A stretch of DNA of 35,770 nucleotides from a virus: the UHGV virus genome UHGV-0348126; one strand, given 5' to 3'. Both the position numbers and the translations under genes were made by a program. The notes below the pieces were generated by a model. It worked only from the letters and a program-made list of their open reading frames with translations, had not been told where the DNA came from and searched no databases. This document shows positions 15,104 through 21,789 of this stretch, piece by piece (position 1 is the stretch's first letter; each line of letters opens with the position of its first letter).

Positions 15104-16837
15104 TTAAAGCGAGCGGATCCCATAGGACTCAATGTGGTCAGACAGCGTGTCTTCTTTCTCGTACAGCATGGCTCTGCCAACCGCCATAATCAGCGCAACT
15201 GCACCGTCAATTTTGTTTTCCGCCTGCTCTTTGACGGGTTTCACCACATCATCGTTACCCGGAATGGTTTTGCCGACCACATTGCCGATACACCAGGTCA
15301 TGATGGGATTGCCATCATGATGAAAGCGCCCCGATTCAATTGCCGCTTCCAGCTCTTTCATCGGGTCGGACATGTTGGTGTAGTTCTGAATGATAGTGAC
15401 GGGATTCAGGTCTTCATCAGCAAGGTCATGTGACAACCCGGTCGCCCCGAAGGGGTCGATGGGTGACTCACTGACCGGGCTGATTTTGTTCGCCGCTTTG
15501 GCCTCCTCGAGGATGTAGCGATAATCCACCTCCGCACCATCGGTAACGGTCAGAACGCCCATTTCCACCCATTTCTGAAAGCGTTCGGCTGTCCGGCGAT
15601 CTTCATTTTTCTCGACGCTGTACACCGTGTCATACGGTACCCAGAAGCGCGGAGCCACACTGTAGTAATGCGTTTTACCGTCAATCTCGCGGGTATAAAG
15701 TCGCGCCATGCTGTTCATATCCAGCTTACGCGCCAGGTCAAAGGCCAGAATGCACGGCTGCCCCTCGAACTGCTCAAGGGTCAGTGATTTATCCTCGCAG
15801 CTCTGCCAGCTCACCAGGTTGAAATACGCCGAACGCGCCGACACCCAGATATTGAGGTGTTTTGTTTTAAAGACGTTTGCCAGACGGGCGTTATTTTTCG
15901 CACGCTGCTGCTGACTTAACAAAAATTCGCGATAAACCGACACGCCAATATTTGGATTGGCTTTTTCCAGCACCTGCGGGTCGGTCCAGTCGTCACCTTC
16001 ATCAACGGTATAGATGATCCCGAACAGTTCATCGTTAGGCACCGAGCCGTTGAGCATCTCGATGACTTCCCGCCGCTTGTCGTAGCACGGCCCCTCAATG
16101 TTGTACCCGGCGGTGGTGATGGCCCACATCAGTGGCTGACGTCGCGCCCCCATCCCGGTAAGCATTGTGGTATAAAGCGCATCGGTGGCATGCTCGTGAT
16201 ATTCATCAACCACGGCACAGTGGGGTGATGAACCATCACCGGGGTTGCCGATCAGCGGTTCAAACCGCGCGCCATCCTCCGGACGGTTCATGTTTGAGGC
16301 GTTAACCTCAATCCCGAACGCTTCCGTCAGCATGGGTGTGCGTTTACACATCAGTCGCGCCGGGCGAAAGACTTCCCACGCCTGTTTCTCTGTCGTGGCA
16401 CCGGAATACACTTCCGCGCCAAACTCGTTATCACAGGCAAAACAATACAGGGCAACACCGGCAGAGATTGCTGATTTGCCGTTCTTACGGGGGATTTCGG
16501 TATACACCTCCCGGAAGCGGCGCAACCGGGTGCCTTTATTGACCCAGCCAAACGCACAGCAGATCACAAATAGCTGCCACGGCTCCAGCGTGATGGGCAT
16601 CCGTTTGAATGCCCACTCACCCTTGGTGTGCGGCAACAGCTGAATAAATTTCGCGGCCCGTTCAGCCAGGTCCTTGTCGAAGCGGTAACGAAACGACTTA
16701 CTTTTTTCCGCCATCAGGTCATCAAGATGGCGCTGGCAGGCCTGAATCACAAACTGGCAGGCAACAATCTTTCCGCGCACGACATCCCGGGCATACTGAT
16801 TGGCAGCATTTACGTTGGGGTAAGATTTCCGGCTCAT
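15104..16837 (-). CDS. terminase large subunit
   Basis: 577-aa ORF; Walker-A-like RKNGKS; size and position after the small subunit. Confidence 0.9.
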
Positions 16838-17337
16838 GACTCGATGATTTTCAGAAACGGGTTAGTGGCTTTCTTCTGCCCCGCCAGGCCAATCAGACGC
16901 TGGCGGCTGCTGGGGTCGAGTCCGAGCATTGCCCCCGTGCTGCTCATCTCGGACTCCTGTTCTTTCTTGGCGGTCAGCTCCGGGTTTTTGACCATACCGC
17001 CCATTGCACCGGTAATGGTGTTGCCCTGGCTGGCAATATTTTTCACGGCACGTCGCCAGAACTCATAGGCCACGCACCACCGCTCAAGCACCGCGAGGTC
17101 AGTCACGCACAGCAGGCCCTGACCGCAGAGTTCTTTGGTTGTCAGTTGCCACATGATCGTGGCGAGAGGGAGATCTTCTTCAGCGAACCACTCCGGTGGC
17201 TCAACACCTTTGATGGGCGTAAAAACAGGTTCATCTTTATTCAGGGCTCGCTTGCCGGGGTTTCCGGCCAGCGCCTTGCGCGCCGTTGGCTTGGGGCGAC
17301 GCCCGGAACGCCCCGCCGTTCCAGCCATATGCGGCAC
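16834..17337 (-). CDS. terminase small subunit (P27-family-like)
   Basis: 167-aa ORF with basic N-terminus, ATGA overlap with the large subunit gene; downstream of HNH and the likely cos region. Confidence 0.75.
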
Positions 17338-17453
17338 TCCTGGTTAAATTTCATTTTTCGCGGGTATAAAAAAACGATGGGGCGGGCAGTCCGGAAGACG
17401 TCAGGCCGCAGGGATTTGACCCGCCCCTCCCCTCAGGCAGTTGAGAATAATTA
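17338..17453. other. candidate cos (cohesive end) region
   Basis: 116-bp intergenic region between HNH and the terminase small subunit, the usual cos location in HK97-like phages; contains inverted GC blocks GGGGCGGG (17389..17396) and CCCGCCCC (17420..17427). Confidence 0.35.
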
Positions 17454-17804
17454 TCACTTCAACCATTCACGGGCCGTCTTCGCCTTATGACACGGCCAGC
17501 ACAGACTCTGCAGATTACAGTCGGCATCAGTGCCGCCATGCGCTTTAGGGATGATGTGGTCAACAGTTTTCGCCTCACGCACCACACCAGCACGCAGACA
17601 TAGCTGACACAGGCCTTTGTCACGCTTCAGGACACGCACGCGGATAACATCCCACTTCGAACCATAACCGCGCTGATGACGAGATTGTCCTGGCTTGTAT
17701 TGCTTCCAGCCTTCGCTTTTGTGGCTTTCGCAATAGCCTGACGGGTCAGTCGTGGTATGGCGGCAGCCGCGAACGCGGCAGGCTTTTGGGGTTCGTGGAG
17801 GCAT
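17454..17804 (-). CDS. HNH endonuclease (terminase-associated)
   Basis: 116-aa ORF with Cys-rich HNH motif DHIIPKAHGGTDADCNLQSLCWPCHKAKT; immediately upstream of terminase genes. Confidence 0.85.
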   Translation of the reverse strand: MPPRTPKACRVRGCRHTTTDPSGYCESHKSEGWKQYKPGQSRHQRGYGSKWDVIRVRVLKRDKGLCQLCLRAGVVREAKTVDHIIPKAHGGTDADCNLQSLCWPCHKAKTAREWLK

Positions 17805-17931
17805 CTATTATCCCTGTAGTTTTCGTTAAATATCTAACCATAACTGCAATCAGAAACCGCTTTAACACGGTTTGTTAAATAGACTTTTCAATCCAATGAA
17901 TAAACGGCAAGTAAATACCAATCGTTCATTT

Positions 17932-18378
17932 TCATTTGAATACAAACTGTTCTGAAAGAATATTATGACAAATATATTTCGCCTGAATACTATTATCTCT
18001 CATTCTAATATATTCTTTGTGGGCAACAGATAAAGAACGACAACCGCTGTTTACACGTGGGTATTTTTCCAACATATGTTCGCATATCAAAAAAGCATTA
18101 TTAACAGCATTTAATTTATGATTTAACTCTCGTAGCTCGGCCCTTTTTTCAATACGAACATTACGACTAAGAGATAAAGGTAGTTGTGATAATGCATTTG
18201 AATAATCAGCCACTGCCATTTTCAGAGCCATTTTGGCCTTCAGAGCCTCCTGTCGCCGCCAAACATTCATTGCCCAAAAACCTAATGTAACAGTTACAAT
18301 TGAACCTAAAGCCGATACAGCTGACCACACAGTTCCCCAAGGCCAGTTAAGTAATGTATGCCACATAATAACCTCCAC
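17932..18378 (-). CDS. hypothetical membrane-anchored protein (AT-rich moron)
   Basis: 148-aa ORF in a visibly AT-rich island between the lysis cassette and HNH; N-terminal hydrophobic helix WPWGTVWSAVSALGSIVTVTLGFWAMNVW followed by a charged helical region; no family recognised. Confidence 0.55.
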   Translation of the reverse strand: MEVIMWHTLLNWPWGTVWSAVSALGSIVTVTLGFWAMNVWRRQEALKAKMALKMAVADYSNALSQLPLSLSRNVRIEKRAELRELNHKLNAVNNAFLICEHMLEKYPRVNSGCRSLSVAHKEYIRMRDNSIQAKYICHNILSEQFVFK

Positions 18379-18734
18379 TGAATGAAAAGGTTAGTTTATC
18401 GCAAGTGAACATCACTGGCACTATCTAAAGATTAGCTGCTCTACTAGTTGTACTCTCGATAATCTACACAAAATGATACGTAATAAACCTGTTCATGACT
18501 AGCTCTACTAGACACATGTTTAATCATCGACAAACGATTTGTATAAACTTCCACTTTCATATTGATCCAAAAGGTTGGCCTAATAGTTAATCACGATGCA
18601 TATTTTATGCAAGCTGCTACATTACGCTATAAAAACGCTAGCATCTGAACTTAAAGCCATAGATTTTATAAAATTACCATAATACACAACTTTATTATGA
18701 GCATTCGCAACGATAATGAAAAATATAACTCGAG

Positions 18735-19007
18735 CTATTTGTCTTTCGAATGCAAAATAGCGCGCCGTGATTCAATATTTCTGATTCCAGTTTTATCAAA
18801 ATTACATTGTCCCAAGGCTGACAATAGAGCAACATTCAACTCCAGACTGGTACCATACGTCAGCGGATTGGGTATAAACGGTACTGGAGTATCAGAAGTC
18901 AGGCTGGCTGGCAGCGGTGCCACCGGATCGCTCACGTAAACCGTCCGCGTACTTCCGCAACCGGTCAGCAGCGGCAGCAGGCACAGGACGTGAAGCACAA
19001 TCATCAT
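18735..19007 (-). CDS. Rz1-like outer-membrane spanin lipoprotein (overlaps Rz in another frame)
   Basis: ORF frame 18735..19073 contains MMIVLHVLCLLPLLTGCGS (lipobox LTGC) followed by a Pro-rich sequence; starts inside Rz and runs past its stop. Confidence 0.5.
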   Translation of the reverse strand: MMIVLHVLCLLPLLTGCGSTRTVYVSDPVAPLPASLTSDTPVPFIPNPLTYGTSLELNVALLSALGQCNFDKTGIRNIESRRAILHSKDK

Positions 19008-19284
19008 CCGCAACAGCCACTTTGATATCTTCCTGGGTTCTCTGTGACTCCAGTGCGATCTGCTGTTTTGCATGTTGATTCGCCTCCTGAATGATGTTCG
19101 TTATTGCCATAGTACGCAGAACATTCGCGGTGATAGCCTCAGTAGAATCAGCTCGCTGTTCCGCAGCATCAGCACGCTTCTGCTCCTCCAGAAACTTTCC
19201 ATGATAGTGATTCGCTGACCAGACAAGACCACCAGCGACACAAGCAATAAACGTTAAAATGAGCGCCCAATAACTCATCTTCAT
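18892..19284 (-). CDS. Rz-like inner-membrane spanin
   Basis: 130-aa ORF with N-terminal transmembrane segment (YWALILTFIACVAGGLVW) and charged helical periplasmic domain; directly after the endolysin gene with 4-nt overlap. Confidence 0.7.
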   Translation of the reverse strand: MKMSYWALILTFIACVAGGLVWSANHYHGKFLEEQKRADAAEQRADSTEAITANVLRTMAITNIIQEANQHAKQQIALESQRTQEDIKVAVADDDCASRPVPAAAADRLRKYADGLRERSGGTAASQPDF

Positions 19285-19895
19285 ACCAGCAGCGCCGCCC
19301 GCGCCTTGTTGTATCGGACCTTACGATCCTCAATACCGTTCAAACCGCCGTTAATGATGCGCGTAACACGGTTAATATCGGCACCGTAGATCATGCAACC
19401 TTTAGAGGTGTAGAACCATGCAGCTGAGCGCGCCGCCTGTAGTTCCTGTTCCAGTTGTTCAGGTGAAGTCACCAGATCTAACTTCAGCGCCGCGCCACAG
19501 ATGCGATAATTATGGAGGCCAGTGATTTGAATTAATCCTCTACCACGATATTTCCAGCCATCACCTGGTGCTTTGTTACCCAGTCGGTTGCTATACACCA
19601 GATTGGCAATAGCATCCTGACGAGCTGCATGTCCGGATGTTCTGCCAAGGGCATCAGCCTGCTGCTGTGTGATCCTCTTTCCGAACGTCGCCACAAGCGC
19701 AGATGGTGTGTAGTTAAGATTTTCAACTACGGCGCTAAACCCCATCGACTCATGGCCTGCCTGAGCGATAAACATTGCCTGATCCGCTGGTGCTGTAATG
19801 CCGAATTCCTTCATCGCCGCATCAATGTGCGGAAACCAGCGCGCAGCCAGCCCGGCGCTAATACCAGCCGCCTTTTGAAATAATTGTTGGTTCAT
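19281..19895 (-). CDS. endolysin, glycoside hydrolase family 19-like
   Basis: 204-aa ORF between holin and spanin genes; recalled resemblance to GH19 phage lysozymes. Confidence 0.75.
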   Translation of the reverse strand: MNQQLFQKAAGISAGLAARWFPHIDAAMKEFGITAPADQAMFIAQAGHESMGFSAVVENLNYTPSALVATFGKRITQQQADALGRTSGHAARQDAIANLVYSNRLGNKAPGDGWKYRGRGLIQITGLHNYRICGAALKLDLVTSPEQLEQELQAARSAAWFYTSKGCMIYGADINRVTRIINGGLNGIEDRKVRYNKARAALLV

Positions 19896-21036: not shown

Positions 21037-21789
21037 TTATCTCGTCACTTTTCTTAATTGCGCCTCAGCATATGCTTCTTCCTGCCAGCACTTTGTCACC
21101 AGTTTATCAATGACATCTGCATATCCTTTGTACCACTGATAATCCGTCAGGTCTGGTACCAGCTTCTGGACATGATGCCGCGCCAGTGTGGTTGGTAAAC
21201 GGCTAAACCGGTTTCCATTGCAACGCCCACAAATCTTATAAACAGGCGTGCCATGAAGCCGGGTCCTTTTTTCATCCAGGACAATACCTTTACCCTTACA
21301 CCCTCTGCACGCTGTGCTGGCTTCTCCCTTACCATGACAATGCTGACATAGTTCCTTCACCCACTCTTCCTTGATAACAGATTCCCCGCTTCTGGAGTGT
21401 TTCACCACTTCGCGCAATACATTATGAAATCCAGTACCAGCACAATGCTCACAGCGAGCCTTACTTGCCGCAGACCTGGAATAATCAGCAAAGGCAAAAT
21501 TCACAAGGTAAGGGATGATCTGTAACCGGGTTTCTTCACTCAATTTATTCAATGTCGGATTATCCAGTGCCATCGCGTAATTGAGCAGACCTTCAATCGC
21601 AAACTGAGGATCCTGAACACCAACTTTTGCCAGGAATAAGGCAAATCCAAGCGGTGCTTTCGACTGCACCATCCCCTGCGCAGCCATCACATCCGTAATC
21701 GTTAAACCACCCGAGCCTGTCGCCGGTGCGTCATCGCTCAGTTTTGGAGATTTTGGGGAGTAATATTTTGGTAAGGCTTCAAGGTTCAT
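21037..21789 (-). CDS. late-gene antiterminator Q
   Basis: 250-aa ORF with Cys-rich zinc-binding-like segment (CEHCAGTGF...CQHCHGKGE...CRGCKGKG...CGRCNG); located immediately upstream of the late promoter/terminator and lysis genes. Confidence 0.75.
   Translation of the reverse strand: MNLEALPKYYSPKSPKLSDDAPATGSGGLTITDVMAAQGMVQSKAPLGFALFLAKVGVQDPQFAIEGLLNYAMALDNPTLNKLSEETRLQIIPYLVNFAFADYSRSAASKARCEHCAGTGFHNVLREVVKHSRSGESVIKEEWVKELCQHCHGKGEASTACRGCKGKGIVLDEKRTRLHGTPVYKICGRCNGNRFSRLPTTLARHHVQKLVPDLTDYQWYKGYADVIDKLVTKCWQEEAYAEAQLRKVTR

What the first reader, a model, noticed from the sequence alone, without database searches (positions are those of the whole stretch)
17932..18378. Membrane-anchored moron between the lysis cassette and the HNH/terminase genes
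A 148-aa ORF with one N-terminal transmembrane helix and a charged helical domain lies in an AT-rich island at the position where lambda carries the bor moron. It has its own long AT-rich upstream region, so it is probably expressed from the prophage independently of late transcription. Small membrane proteins at this locus are typically superinfection-exclusion, abortive-infection or host-fitness factors. No family is recognisable.
Basis: partly seen in the sequence, partly recalled or inferred. Interest (0 to 1): 0.6.

Follow-up and report, generated by a model that had tools for sequence, protein, structure and literature searches.

The report
Prophage cargo gene: membrane protein cassette
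A small, horizontally acquired gene cassette in an E. coli prophage encodes an uncharacterised single-pass inner-membrane protein; its conserved leader appears to block translation when the phage's late transcripts read through it, and it most likely protects the lysogen against other phages, though that function is untested.

Summary
An ORF lies on the minus strand at 17932-18378 (more likely 144 aa, from the ATG at 18366), with one N-terminal TM helix and a helical C-terminal domain. It sits in a 0.32-0.40 GC island between Rz/Rz1 and HNH-terS-terL of an HK97/P27-like E. coli prophage.

"No family recognisable" is only partly right. It matches PHROG 6169 (unknown function). About 66 clusters at 50% identity exist, and every member whose surroundings I examined lies in a temperate phage or prophage of Enterobacterales.

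Comparison supports the moron reading, but not through the long AT-rich upstream region, whose distal 280 bp is the least conserved part. The Rz1-to-HNH slot is variable: empty, or holding one of at least six other cargos. In other phages the same slot holds PD-T4-6-like kinase and Abi_alpha genes next to family members.

A compact leader travels with the gene. It has a -10-like TAnAAT box about 32 nt before the ATG, followed at once by a hairpin pairing an anti-SD with the gene's own SD. Many members also have a terminator.

Inferred: a transcript from the cassette's own promoter would be translatable, and late read-through transcripts would not (as for T4 gene e, and IS10). The protein's function is untested; I favour inner-membrane exclusion or defence. 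This is a new member of a known kind.

The parts
17932..18366 (-). Coding sequence of the cargo protein (144 aa from the ATG at 18366; the mechanical ORF extends to a GTG at 18378, giving 148 aa)
   Evidence: PGAP 144 aa, WP_033868734.1; PHROG 6169 at E=2.4e-57; dN/dS 0.09-0.34.
18268..18336 (-). Single transmembrane helix (residues about 11-33), rich in Ser/Ala/Thr/Gly, with family-conserved small residues (S18, T/S22, A/G29, A32)
   Evidence: Hydropathy and positive-inside counts; conservation across 62 members; AF2 helix 10-60.
18220..18261 (-). Juxtamembrane motif W36-x2-Q39-E40-x2-K43-x-K45-x3-K49, the most conserved stretch of the family, predicted on the cytoplasmic side
   Evidence: W36 and Q39 each in 61 of 62 members, K49 in 58 of 62.
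18370..18392 (-). Leader hairpin: 5' arm AACCTTTTC (18392-18384), loop ATTCA (18383-18379), 3' arm GTGGAGGTT (18378-18370). The 3' arm contains the Shine-Dalgarno GGAGG (18376-18372).
   Evidence: MFE -7.0 kcal/mol with the SD fully paired. An equivalent hairpin occurs in 30 of 34 distinct family leaders versus 46 of 294 control genes. Covariation.
18393..18398 (-). -10-like box TAAACT (family consensus TAnAAT), directly abutting the 5' arm of the hairpin and 32 nt before the ATG
   Evidence: T3, A4 and A6 invariant; A7 and T8 at least 90% across 27 leaders; box-to-ATG 31-32 nt in most. The tool's stricter consensus scan does not call it.
18416..18421 (-). Weak -35-like hexamer GTGCCA, 17 nt upstream of the box. 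It is part of a block (ACTGAGTGCCT...) also seen upstream of members only about 20% identical in protein.
   Evidence: Read from the sequence; alignment; L069/L070 leader. Only a 4/6 match to TTGACA; inference.
18455..18734 (-). Distal AT-rich spacer between the LysC stop and the conserved leader; apparently unconstrained
   Evidence: 93% identity where the ORF and leader are 99%; stops in all six frames and no protein similarity; found only together with this gene; no Rfam match.
17854..17873 (-). Marginal terminator-like hairpin AAACCG-TGTTAAAG-CGGTTT followed by CTGATTG, at the position where other family members carry canonical intrinsic terminators
   Evidence: Alignment. Not flagged by the tool but passes my looser script. 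Clear terminators in L017 and L069 and in 21 of 38 distinct loci.
17805..18792 (-). The variable cargo segment as a whole (low-GC island). Homology to sister prophages stops at 17804-17817 and resumes at 18771-18793.
18735..19284 (-). Flank: spanin pair (Rz-like DUF2570 18892-19284; LysC/Rz1-like 18735-19073), the end of a complete lysis cassette
17454..17804 (-). Flank: HNH endonuclease preceding P27-type terS (16834-17337) and terL (15104-16837)
   Evidence: PF01844, 5.3e-15.
21037..21789 (-). Context: Q-type antiterminator upstream of the lysis genes. Late transcription is therefore expected to read through the cargo.
   Evidence: PF03589 Antiterm, 1.2e-53. Read-through is inferred from lambdoid biology.

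Best explanation
The feature is a self-contained moron cassette inserted in the late operon of an HK97/P27-like E. coli prophage, between the spanin genes and HNH/terminase.

It encodes a 144-aa single-pass inner-membrane protein. The N-terminus is predicted outside. The C-terminal helical bundle of about 110 aa is predicted in the cytoplasm, held against the membrane by a strongly conserved juxtamembrane helix.

The cassette brings its own compact leader: a weak sigma-70-like promoter whose -10 box abuts a hairpin that pairs an anti-Shine-Dalgarno sequence with the gene's own SD.

Inferred mechanism of expression:
- A transcript starting about 7 nt after the box begins inside the 5' arm, so its SD is free and the protein is made at a low level from the repressed prophage.
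- Q-antiterminated late transcripts reading through from the lysis genes contain the whole hairpin and are poorly translated. The protein is therefore kept low during the phage's own lytic growth.

Inferred function: a lysogen-expressed factor in phage-phage conflict that acts at the inner membrane. Candidates are blocking genome entry of a superinfecting phage or membrane-based abortive infection. The conserved small-residue face of the TM helix and the juxtamembrane stripe would contact a membrane partner or another copy of itself.

Shown here: the cassette structure, variable-slot behaviour, family, predicted topology, leader conservation, and purifying selection. Inferred only: promoter activity, TSS position, differential translation, and the anti-phage role.
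For: Cargo behaviour:
- The HNH-terS module occurs in about 1310 of 5426 complete E. coli genomes, this cargo in 54.
- In sister prophages the slot is empty (26 bp), or holds a GrlR-like gene, a distant long-N paralogue, or four other unrelated small ORF sets. The breakpoints are sharp.
- GC is 0.37-0.44 against 0.46-0.55 for the locus in nearly all of the 57 loci tabulated.

Family:
- 21 clusters at 90% identity and 66 representatives at 50% identity, nearly all 137-195 aa apart from truncated fragments and one 966-aa weak hit, same architecture.
- All contexts examined are temperate phages or prophages. CobraSix has int, xis, a repressor and Q.
- In the 57 loci tabulated the gene shares the strand of the identifiable flanking late genes (lysis, terminase, portal). 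It lies between lysis and terminase, between terL and portal, or just upstream of terS.

Leader:
- The SD is fully paired to an upstream arm in 30 of 34 distinct leaders, versus 46 of 294 strong-SD control genes in the same loci.
- 81.7% of cells are paired versus 37-67% for slid registers, and 6 of 9 pairs change on both sides.
- Divergent subfamilies keep the pairing with different sequences (L059 CTCACT/AGTGAG, L030 GCCTC/GAGGC, L066 CATCTCAT/ATGATGAG).
- TAnAAT sits 31-32 nt from the ATG in most leaders.
- The composite motif occurs 23 times in 1.42 Mb, 21 of them at family genes.
- Modelled SD accessibility has a median of 0.02 in long transcripts and 0.42 in transcripts starting 7 nt after the box.

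Terminators lie downstream in 21 of 38 distinct loci.

Protein:
- N-out/C-in by the positive-inside rule in 74 of 76 members.
- Conserved A29, A32, W36, Q39, E40, K43, K49, P63, E96, Y119.
- dN/dS 0.09-0.34.

Defence association: in other phages the same slot holds a PD-T4-6/Stk2-like kinase plus PP2C, Abi_alpha (PADLOC PDC-S47), or a Tad2-like gene directly beside a family member.

Precedents:
- A promoter placed inside an SD-occluding hairpin: T4 e, soc, 49, I-TevI (PMC3014915 section 29).
- The moron definition and HK97 gp15 as an inner-membrane exclusion protein: PMC3594210.
- The need to switch prophage defences off on induction: PMC11087260.
Against: - No experiment or transcript data bear on this gene.
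- The promoter is weak by consensus (GTGCCA-17-TAAACT, 8/12). The tool's scan does not call it, and promoter-like hits in the region do not exceed shuffles (6 versus 4.3 +/- 2.1).
- The TSS is assumed, not observed.
- In one subgroup (L027, L029, L038, L054) the box overlaps the stop codon of the upstream gene. There, ordinary translational coupling could open the hairpin instead.
- The covariation signal is moderate and the sequences are related.
- The window's own hairpin is among the weakest (-7 kcal/mol, with U-G pairs and one mismatch), and its terminator is marginal.
- The gene always shares the strand of the late genes, which is also what a true late gene would do.
- There is no similarity to any known exclusion, Abi or defence protein. 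Structural matches are generic four-helix bundles and no viral structure match is significant.
- Defence association by neighbourhood is circumstantial, and one of the neighbours (Tad2-like) is an anti-defence gene.
Confidence: 0.42

Rival explanations
1. It is a lysogenic-conversion or host-fitness factor unrelated to phage defence. The cassette is a moron expressed in the lysogen, but the membrane protein modulates a host inner-membrane protein (a sensor kinase, transporter or stress pathway). It would benefit the host in some niche, as Bor and Lom do in lambda.
Against: No homology to any known conversion factor; there is no lipobox or signal peptide, so it is not Bor-like. The family diverges to about 20% identity inside a conserved leader/terminator frame and occurs as tandem paralogues. 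That pattern suggests an arms race more than a conserved host target. Its immediate neighbours in three unrelated phages are defence or anti-defence genes.
Confidence: 0.2
2. It is a late-acting accessory of the phage's own lytic cycle, for example a lysis-timing regulator (antiholin-like) or a membrane-associated helper. It would be translated from late transcripts, with the SD hairpin merely tuning the amount or coupling translation to an upstream ORF.
For: It lies next to a lysis cassette in most contexts and always shares the strand of the late genes. The TM helix is rich in Ser/Ala/Thr/Gly, reminiscent of SAR-type helices of lysis proteins (the comparison is from my own knowledge). In one subgroup the upstream gene's stop codon abuts the hairpin, the classic coupling geometry. 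Lambda S has a regulatory leader hairpin (own knowledge).
Against: It is dispensable: absent from most prophages that share the same lysis and terminase genes at 95-97% identity, and the slot can be empty. It also occurs between terL and portal and among DNA-methylase genes, away from lysis genes. It has foreign base composition and its own terminators. The window already has two holins, an endolysin and both spanins. There is no significant match to holin or antiholin families (phrog_20 at E=1.5). The predicted topology puts the soluble domain in the cytoplasm, unlike T4 RI.
Confidence: 0.15
3. It is an anti-defence (counter-defence) protein. It would be expressed from its constitutive promoter as soon as the phage genome enters a cell, or in the lysogen, and would neutralise a membrane-associated host or prophage defence system.
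For: In Pectobacterium the adjacent gene carries a Tad2-like (anti-Thoeris) domain. A sigma-70-type promoter not controlled by the repressor would fire on incoming DNA (inference). The rapid diversification and paralogy fit either side of an arms race.
Against: No similarity to known anti-defence proteins. Silencing translation in late transcripts is harder to rationalise for a counter-defence needed throughout infection. The other neighbours are defence genes, not anti-defence genes.
Confidence: 0.1
4. It is a chance ORF in AT-rich junk, or a decaying gene with no function.
For: The surrounding spacer is unconstrained. No Pfam or NCBIfam family matches.
Against: dN/dS is 0.09-0.34. Homologues retain their length down to about 20% identity, with conserved motifs. 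A strong SD is present. AF2 gives a confident helical fold from 18 sequences. The PHROG family matches.
Confidence: 0.02

Closest known systems
Morons of lambdoid phages as defined for HK97/HK022 (Juhala et al. 2000; reviewed in PMC3594210), especially HK97 gp15
   Same: An extra gene in a late operon, absent from close relatives, with deviant GC content, a small inner-membrane product, and (in the family) a flanking promoter-like element and an intrinsic terminator. gp15 is a prophage-expressed inner-membrane protein that blocks genome entry.
   Different: No sequence relationship: no Pfam family matched at all, so no YebO-type hit. The slot differs (lysis/terminase junction rather than the tail operon). 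The protein is larger, with a cytoplasmic helical bundle. The conserved SD-occluding leader is not part of the classical moron description, as far as the papers I searched show. Function untested.
Lambda bor
   Same: The same map position relative to Rz/Rz1 and the cos/terminase end, and an accessory gene expressed from the prophage (own knowledge).
   Different: Bor is an outer-membrane lipoprotein encoded on the opposite strand. This protein has no lipobox or signal peptide, is co-oriented with the late genes, and has no Pfam match.
T4 genes e, soc, 49 and I-TevI (translation blocked in long transcripts by an SD-sequestering hairpin, with a promoter inside the hairpin); IS10 'fold-back inhibition' against external transcripts
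   Same: The geometry: a -10-type box placed so that its transcript would start within the 5' arm of a hairpin that occludes the ribosome-binding site. Only locally initiated transcripts are then translatable (PMC3014915 section 29; IS10 from my own knowledge).
   Different: Here the logic would be reversed in time: silent in late transcripts and active from a host-type promoter in the lysogen. It is attached to a mobile cargo gene and conserved across many phage backgrounds. The TSS and differential translation are not demonstrated.
Single-gene prophage-encoded membrane-anchored exclusion or Abi proteins (P22 SieA, T4 Imm, S. aureus PdpSau)
   Same: Prophage- or phage-encoded small membrane proteins that act alone against incoming phages (PMC10883804 and PMC10127798, seen as titles and abstracts only).
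   Different: No detectable homology. The number of TM helices and the topology differ (own knowledge for SieA and Imm). No phenotype is known for this family.
PHROG 6169
   Same: A direct profile match over residues 7-148, E=2.4e-57.
   Different: The PHROG carries no functional annotation, so membership gives a name but no function.

Membership tests
Moron (Hendrix/Juhala definition) | Present in one phage and absent at the same site from close relatives | tested here: met
   The slot is empty or differently filled in prophages 95-97% identical in the flanks. Breakpoints lie at 17804-17817 and 18771-18793.
Moron (Hendrix/Juhala definition) | Base composition differs from the surrounding genes | tested here: met
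   GC is 0.32-0.40 versus 0.52-0.58. The same contrast holds in nearly all of the 57 loci tabulated.
Moron (Hendrix/Juhala definition) | Own promoter | tested here: inconclusive
   A conserved TAnAAT box sits at a fixed distance from the ATG, with a weak -35 (GTGCCA, spacer 17). It is not called by the consensus scan, and hits in the region do not exceed shuffles. No TSS data.
Moron (Hendrix/Juhala definition) | Own factor-independent terminator | tested here: inconclusive
   The window has only a marginal hairpin at 17854-17873 (not flagged, passes the looser script). Across the family, 21 of 38 distinct loci have one, with clear cases in L017 and L069.
Moron (Hendrix/Juhala definition) | Expressed from the repressed prophage | not testable with these tools
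   Needs RNA-seq, 5'-RACE or a Western blot of a lysogen.
PHROG 6169 | Significant match to the family profile over most of its length | tested here: met
   E=2.4e-57; residues 7-148 on profile positions 2-164 of 165.
Known superinfection-exclusion families (YebO/gp15-like, Imm, SieB, Cor, Bor lipoprotein) | Sequence membership in the corresponding Pfam/NCBIfam models | tested here: not met
   Zero Pfam and zero NCBIfam families even at E<=10.
Known superinfection-exclusion families | Inner-membrane location | tested here: met
   By prediction only: one TM segment, positive-inside rule met in 74 of 76 members, AF2 helix.
Known superinfection-exclusion families | Blocks infection by other phages when expressed | not testable with these tools
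   Requires a phage challenge.
Catalogued anti-phage defence systems (PADLOC-DB v2.0.0) | Match to a defence-protein model | tested here: not met
   No hit for this protein or for its long-N paralogue. Neighbouring genes in other phages do hit PD-T4-6/Stk2 and PDC-S47.
Lysis proteins (holin, antiholin, spanin) | Profile or fold similarity to a lysis family, and being needed to complete the cassette | tested here: not met
   The best lysis hit is phrog_20 holin at E=1.5. The cassette is already complete, with two holins, an endolysin, Rz and Rz1. The gene is absent from most sister prophages.
Promoter-in-hairpin translational insulation (T4 e type, IS10 fold-back inhibition) | A hairpin that sequesters the SD in long transcripts | tested here: met
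   Computational only: 30 of 34 leaders versus 16% of controls, with covariation. For the window, SD unpaired probability is 0.01 in the long transcript.
Promoter-in-hairpin translational insulation (T4 e type, IS10 fold-back inhibition) | A transcription start inside the 5' arm of that hairpin | tested here: inconclusive
   The -10-like box ends 0-3 nt before the arm or overlaps it. The TSS position is assumed.
Promoter-in-hairpin translational insulation (T4 e type, IS10 fold-back inhibition) | Long transcripts poorly translated and short ones well translated | not testable with these tools
   Needs reporter fusions or ribosome profiling.

The most novel reading that the evidence does not exclude
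This family is a previously unrecognised single-gene anti-phage system: an N-out/C-in membrane-anchored helical bundle that blocks genome entry or triggers membrane-based abortive infection. It is carried in a portable cassette whose promoter-in-hairpin leader makes it translatable only from its own lysogenic transcript and silent in the phage's late read-through transcripts. That would be a built-in safeguard against self-exclusion. Other cargos of late operons share the design: L062 and L064, and a 264-aa membrane protein in L003.
Probability: 0.27. Interest if true: 0.7.

Novelty: new member of a known kind. Interest (0 to 1): 0.5.

Why it matters
If the inference holds, three things follow.

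1. An uncharacterised protein family (PHROG 6169 and distant relatives) becomes a candidate single-gene exclusion or defence factor. In E. coli the two alleles checked are present in 54 and 27 of 5426 complete genomes. Relatives occur in Salmonella, Enterobacter, Hafnia, Pectobacterium and Photorhabdus.

2. The junction between lysis genes and terminase in HK97/P27-like and other temperate phages is a cargo hotspot worth mining. Here it holds PD-T4-6-like kinases, Abi_alpha, a Tad2-like gene, a GrlR-like regulator and several unknowns.

3. The conserved leader suggests a simple general answer to a practical problem for prophage-borne defences embedded in late operons: how to be on in the lysogen yet off when strong late transcription runs through them. 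Reporter fusions can test this directly.

If the protein turns out to have no phage phenotype, it remains an ordinary moron of unknown function.

Tried and rejected
- **Profile libraries.** Pfam, NCBIfam and PADLOC gave nothing. PHROGs gave only an unannotated family.
- **Solved structures by sequence profile.** Nothing below E=0.17.
- **Rfam on 17300-19400.** No match.
- **The long upstream spacer as a regulatory region or decayed gene.** Rejected. It is the least conserved part, has stops in every frame and no protein similarity, and occurs only together with this gene.
- **A metal-binding site from the Cys/His residues (C95, H97, C111, H116, C133, H134).** Rejected as a family feature, because the cysteines are not conserved.
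- **A periplasmic disulfide-bonded domain.** Disfavoured by the positive-inside rule.
- **The leader hairpin plus A/T box as a terminator for antisense transcription.** The tool flags this on the opposite strand in L017 and L022. Rejected, because the largest subgroup (TAGAAT) would give a poor U-tract and nothing is transcribed from that direction.
- **TTGCCA as the -35 in the TAGAAT subgroup.** Rejected; the spacing would put the start inside the SD.
- **A type I toxin-like reading of the fold-back leader.** Rejected on size (144 aa).
- **The GiPD474 Gifsy defence protein (PMC12724215).** Unrelated; it is an ATPase.
- **Literature searches for WP_033868734 and phrog_6169.** Nothing found.
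- **The search for related loci with the broad alignment.** Failed for lack of a conserved stretch. The genome-contig scan then returned a single locus.
Full report
**What is there.** The ORF reported at 17932-18378 on the minus strand is present. Its mechanical start is a GTG. Four codons downstream is an ATG (18366) preceded at 6 nt by GGAGG (18372-18376). RefSeq annotates the 144-aa version, WP_033868734.1, in a 99%-identical prophage of E. coli L3Cip3. GC falls to 0.32-0.40 across about 17800-18800, against 0.52-0.58 on either side. On the minus strand the order is: Q-type antiterminator (21037-21789, PF03589), two holins, a GH19 endolysin, an Rz-like DUF2570 protein with an overlapping LysC/Rz1, 356 bp without an ORF, the gene, an HNH endonuclease, P27-type small terminase, then large terminase. 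The element is an HK97/P27-like prophage; in strain L3Cip3 it is integrated next to tRNA-Thr/proA.

**The protein.** It has one hydrophobic segment (residues about 11-33). No basic residue precedes it and five lie within the 20 residues after it. Across the family, 74 of 76 members show the same bias, so the prediction is N-terminus out and C-terminal domain in the cytoplasm. There is no lipobox and no positively charged signal-peptide n-region.

Family-wide, the best conserved positions are W10, S18, A/G29, A32, W36, Q39, E/D40, K43, K45, K49, P63, E96 and Y119; the cysteines are not conserved. The conserved positions run as a stripe with 3-4 spacing from the inner half of the membrane into the juxtamembrane helix. 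Because the protein has only one TM helix, the membrane-embedded part of that stripe suggests contact with another copy or another membrane protein. This is inference. The gene is under purifying selection, with dN/dS 0.09-0.34.

**The family.** Pfam, NCBIfam and PADLOC give no hit. PHROG 6169, with no known function, matches at 2.4e-57. A word-indexed search finds 21 clusters at 90% identity in Escherichia, Salmonella, Enterobacter and Hafnia, all labelled hypothetical. An exhaustive profile search finds 66 representatives at 50% identity. Apart from truncated fragments (51-116 aa) and one 966-aa weak hit, they are 137-195 aa with the same architecture, and some carry a 20-aa N-terminal extension. 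Further members come from Photorhabdus and Pectobacterium.

Among 50,697 deposited phage genomes, only two phages carry a member: the temperate lambdoid Enterobacter phage CobraSix, which has integrase, excisionase, repressor and antiterminator, and Salmonella phage 118970_sal3. One plasmid record matches weakly. Nothing in the literature library mentions the accession or the PHROG.

**It behaves as cargo.** The HNH-terS module occurs in about 1310 of 5426 complete E. coli genomes, but this gene in only 54. In prophages whose flanks are 95-97% identical, homology stops at 17804-17817 and resumes at 18771-18793. Between these points the sister prophages carry one of the following:
- nothing (26 bp);
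- 292 bp of non-coding DNA;
- a GrlR-like gene;
- a 169-aa ORF;
- a 112-aa ORF on the other strand;
- 74- plus 50-aa ORFs;
- a 64-aa ORF;
- a 184-aa protein that is a distant long-N paralogue of the same family. That paralogue is present in 27 genomes, including ETEC H10407.

In 53 IMG/VR loci the family gene lies in several unrelated phage backbones:
- lysis -> X -> HNH -> terS;
- lysozyme/Rz -> X -> Nu1/gpA-type terminase;
- terS (DUF2280) -> terL -> X -> portal -> Mu-F;
- among DNA-methylase genes upstream of terS;
- X -> terS -> terL -> portal.

In these loci the gene shares the strand of the identifiable flanking late genes, and its GC (0.37-0.44) is lower than that of its locus (0.46-0.55) in nearly all of them. 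Five loci carry two tandem paralogues.

Three distant members looked up individually again sit between the lysis and terminase genes, directly beside defence-related genes:
- a PD-T4-6/Stk2-like Ser/Thr kinase plus PP2C phosphatase, in Photorhabdus;
- an Abi_alpha protein, matching PADLOC candidate PDC-S47;
- a Tad2-like gene, in Pectobacterium.

**The leader is the most informative result.** The long AT-rich upstream region is not what is conserved. Its distal 280 bp (18455-18734) is 93% identical between alleles whose ORF and proximal leader are 99% identical. It has stops in all frames and no protein similarity, and it is found only with this allele. Other family contexts have upstream gaps of only 24-140 bp.

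What travels with the gene in every backbone is a block of about 70 nt. It contains a -10-like box, TAnAAT: TAAACT in the window at 18398-18393, and TAAAAT, TAGAAT, TACAAT or TATAAT elsewhere. In an alignment of 27 leaders, T, A, A are invariant and A, T are at least 90% conserved. The box starts 31-32 nt before the ATG in most leaders.

Directly after the box comes an inverted repeat whose 3' arm is the gene's own Shine-Dalgarno. The consensus is AACCTCCTT-aaatc-AAGGAGGTT-ttc-ATG. The window has AACCTTTTC-attca-GTGGAGGTT-att-ATG at 18392-18370, with an MFE of -7.0 kcal/mol.

The evidence that this hairpin is a selected feature:
- The SD is fully paired to an upstream arm in 30 of 34 distinct leaders, against 46 of 294 strong-SD control genes in the same loci.
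- On the alignment, 81.7% of cells pair, against 37-67% for slid registers, and 6 of 9 pairs show changes on both sides. Only 1 to 14 of 500 shuffles reach the observed percentage paired, count of double changes and covariation score; the count of further pair types is not distinctive (120 of 500).
- Divergent subfamilies keep the pairing with different sequences: L059 CTCACT/AGTGAG, L030 GCCTC/GAGGC, L040 CACCTCTC/GGGAGGTG, L066 CATCTCAT/ATGATGAG.
- A composite pattern (box + anti-SD + SD + ATG) occurs 23 times in 1.42 Mb of both strands, 21 of them at family genes.

The upstream -35-like block (ACTGAGTGCCT) and the downstream terminator are recognisably similar between members only about 20% identical in protein. 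The ORF therefore diversifies inside a conserved expression frame. Intrinsic terminators follow the stop codon in 21 of 38 distinct loci. They are strong in the terL-portal group and in L017, L021 and L069. The window has only a marginal hairpin at 17854-17873.

**How the leader probably works (inferred).** If the box is a sigma-70 -10 element, transcription starts about 7 nt downstream, inside the 5' arm. That transcript lacks the anti-SD. The modelled SD unpaired probability rises from a median of 0.02 in long transcripts to 0.42 in such short transcripts; for the window it rises from 0.01 to 0.47.

The phage has a Q antiterminator upstream of the lysis genes, so late transcripts should read through the cassette, terminator included. 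Those transcripts would carry the closed hairpin. This is the arrangement documented for T4 genes e, soc, 49 and I-TevI: long transcripts are translationally silent, while transcripts from a promoter immediately upstream of the RBS are translated (PMC3014915 section 29). IS10 fold-back inhibition is similar, from my own knowledge.

The expected consequence is production in the lysogen and silence during the phage's own late development. That fits the general need of prophage-borne defences to avoid acting on their own phage after induction (PMC11087260).

Caveats:
- The promoter is weak by consensus (GTGCCA-17-TAAACT), the tool does not call it, and promoter-like hits in the region do not exceed shuffles.
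- No TSS data exist.
- In one subgroup the upstream gene's stop codon overlaps the box, so translational coupling could open the hairpin there.
- The window's hairpin is one of the weaker ones.

**What the protein probably does.** Nothing identifies a biochemical activity. I commit to a lysogen-expressed inner-membrane factor in phage-phage conflict, either exclusion at genome entry or membrane-based abortive infection. The reasons are:
- the cassette is a dispensable, mobile, low-GC cargo found only in the temperate phages and prophages examined;
- its leader looks designed to keep it off in late transcripts;
- its slot-mates elsewhere are defence genes;
- the ORF diversifies and duplicates inside a conserved frame;
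- the precedent of HK97 gp15, a moron-encoded inner-membrane exclusion protein (PMC3594210).

I put this at about 0.4. The rivals are a host-fitness factor unrelated to phages (0.2), a late lytic accessory such as a lysis-timing regulator (0.15), an anti-defence protein (0.1), and a non-functional ORF (0.02, contradicted).

**Comparison and novelty.** Against the moron definition, two features are met here: presence/absence polymorphism and deviant composition. Two are inconclusive for this allele but supported across the family: own promoter and own terminator. One cannot be tested: expression from the repressed prophage. Membership of known exclusion, lysis or defence families was tested by profile and not met. 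The gene is therefore a new, uncharacterised member of a known kind, a moron-encoded small membrane protein.

The promoter-in-hairpin leader is a known regulatory principle. My searches did not find it described for morons. It also appears on other small cargos of the same slot (L062, L064) and on a 264-aa low-GC membrane protein elsewhere in an Enterobacter prophage. That is the part most worth an experiment.

**Verdict.** The function remains inferential. Interest is 0.5.

Noticed in passing
L003:5012-5836 (+), Enterobacter quasihormaechei prophage: A second low-GC (0.38) ORF of 264 aa, with a membrane segment followed by a long charged helical region, carries the same leader design (TAAAAT-AACCTCTT-aacat-AGGAGGGTT-t-ATG) about 2 kb upstream of the family gene. 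No PADLOC hit. This suggests that the promoter-in-hairpin leader is shared among different cargos.
   Followed up: partly
L062:1172-1396 (-) and L064:1058-1252 (-), E. coli sister prophages: Two unrelated small cargos (74 and 64 aa) in the same Rz1-to-HNH slot also have SD-occluding hairpins in their leaders (AACCTCAC...GGAGGTT, and a -19 kcal/mol stem covering the SD and the ATG). The GrlR-like and 169-aa cargos do not show this clearly.
   Followed up: partly
L066:6075-7585, L069:7029-7808, L068:8515-9438: Immediately beside distant family members, between the lysis and terminase genes, lie three gene sets: a PD-T4-6/Stk2-like Ser/Thr kinase with a PP2C phosphatase (Photorhabdus), an Abi_alpha/PDC-S47 protein, and a Phage_gp49_66 + Tad2-like protein (Pectobacterium). 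The slot is a defence and anti-defence hotspot across phage types.
   Followed up: partly
L041:6409-7426; L043, L048, L049, L050: 6429-7438: Tandem pairs of divergent family paralogues, each with its own box-plus-hairpin leader. In L043 the second copy is preceded by a non-coding remnant of the 3' end of a methyltransferase gene that flanks the cassette in other phages.
   Followed up: no
L059:1256-1810 (-); 27 E. coli genomes including ETEC H10407; Salmonella phage 118970_sal3: A 184-aa long-N paralogue (WP_001005134, roughly 22-25% identical by analogy with similar long-N members; not measured directly) occupies exactly the same slot in sister prophages, with a covarying leader (TACAAT-ACTCTCACT-attaac-AGTGAGG). 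H10407 is well studied, so public transcriptomes could test lysogenic expression.
   Followed up: partly
window:20629-20955 (-): A 108-aa ORF with no Pfam match lies in a second lower-GC stretch (0.42-0.47) between the Q antiterminator and the first holin, where the late promoter/terminator region and, in Stx phages, cargo genes sit. I did not examine whether it is a gene or another moron.
   Followed up: no
L001:15691-18849 (E. coli L3Cip3): In this strain the prophage is truncated by two IS26 copies just beyond terS, and the structural genes are gone. The lysis genes, the cargo cassette, HNH and terS are retained at 99% identity. This is a single case, so it says little about selection.
   Followed up: no
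window:18771-18793: The right-hand homology breakpoint of the cargo segment lies inside the last codons of LysC/Rz1 rather than after its stop codon. The C-terminal end of the o-spanin therefore changes with the cargo.
   Followed up: no
L017:6976-6996 and L022:6975-6997 (minus strand of those loci): Read on the opposite strand, the leader hairpin followed by the complement of the A/T box is flagged as terminator-like by the scan. I judged this incidental, because the TAGAAT subgroup gives a poor U-tract, but a role in blocking antisense transcription was not excluded experimentally.
   Followed up: partly
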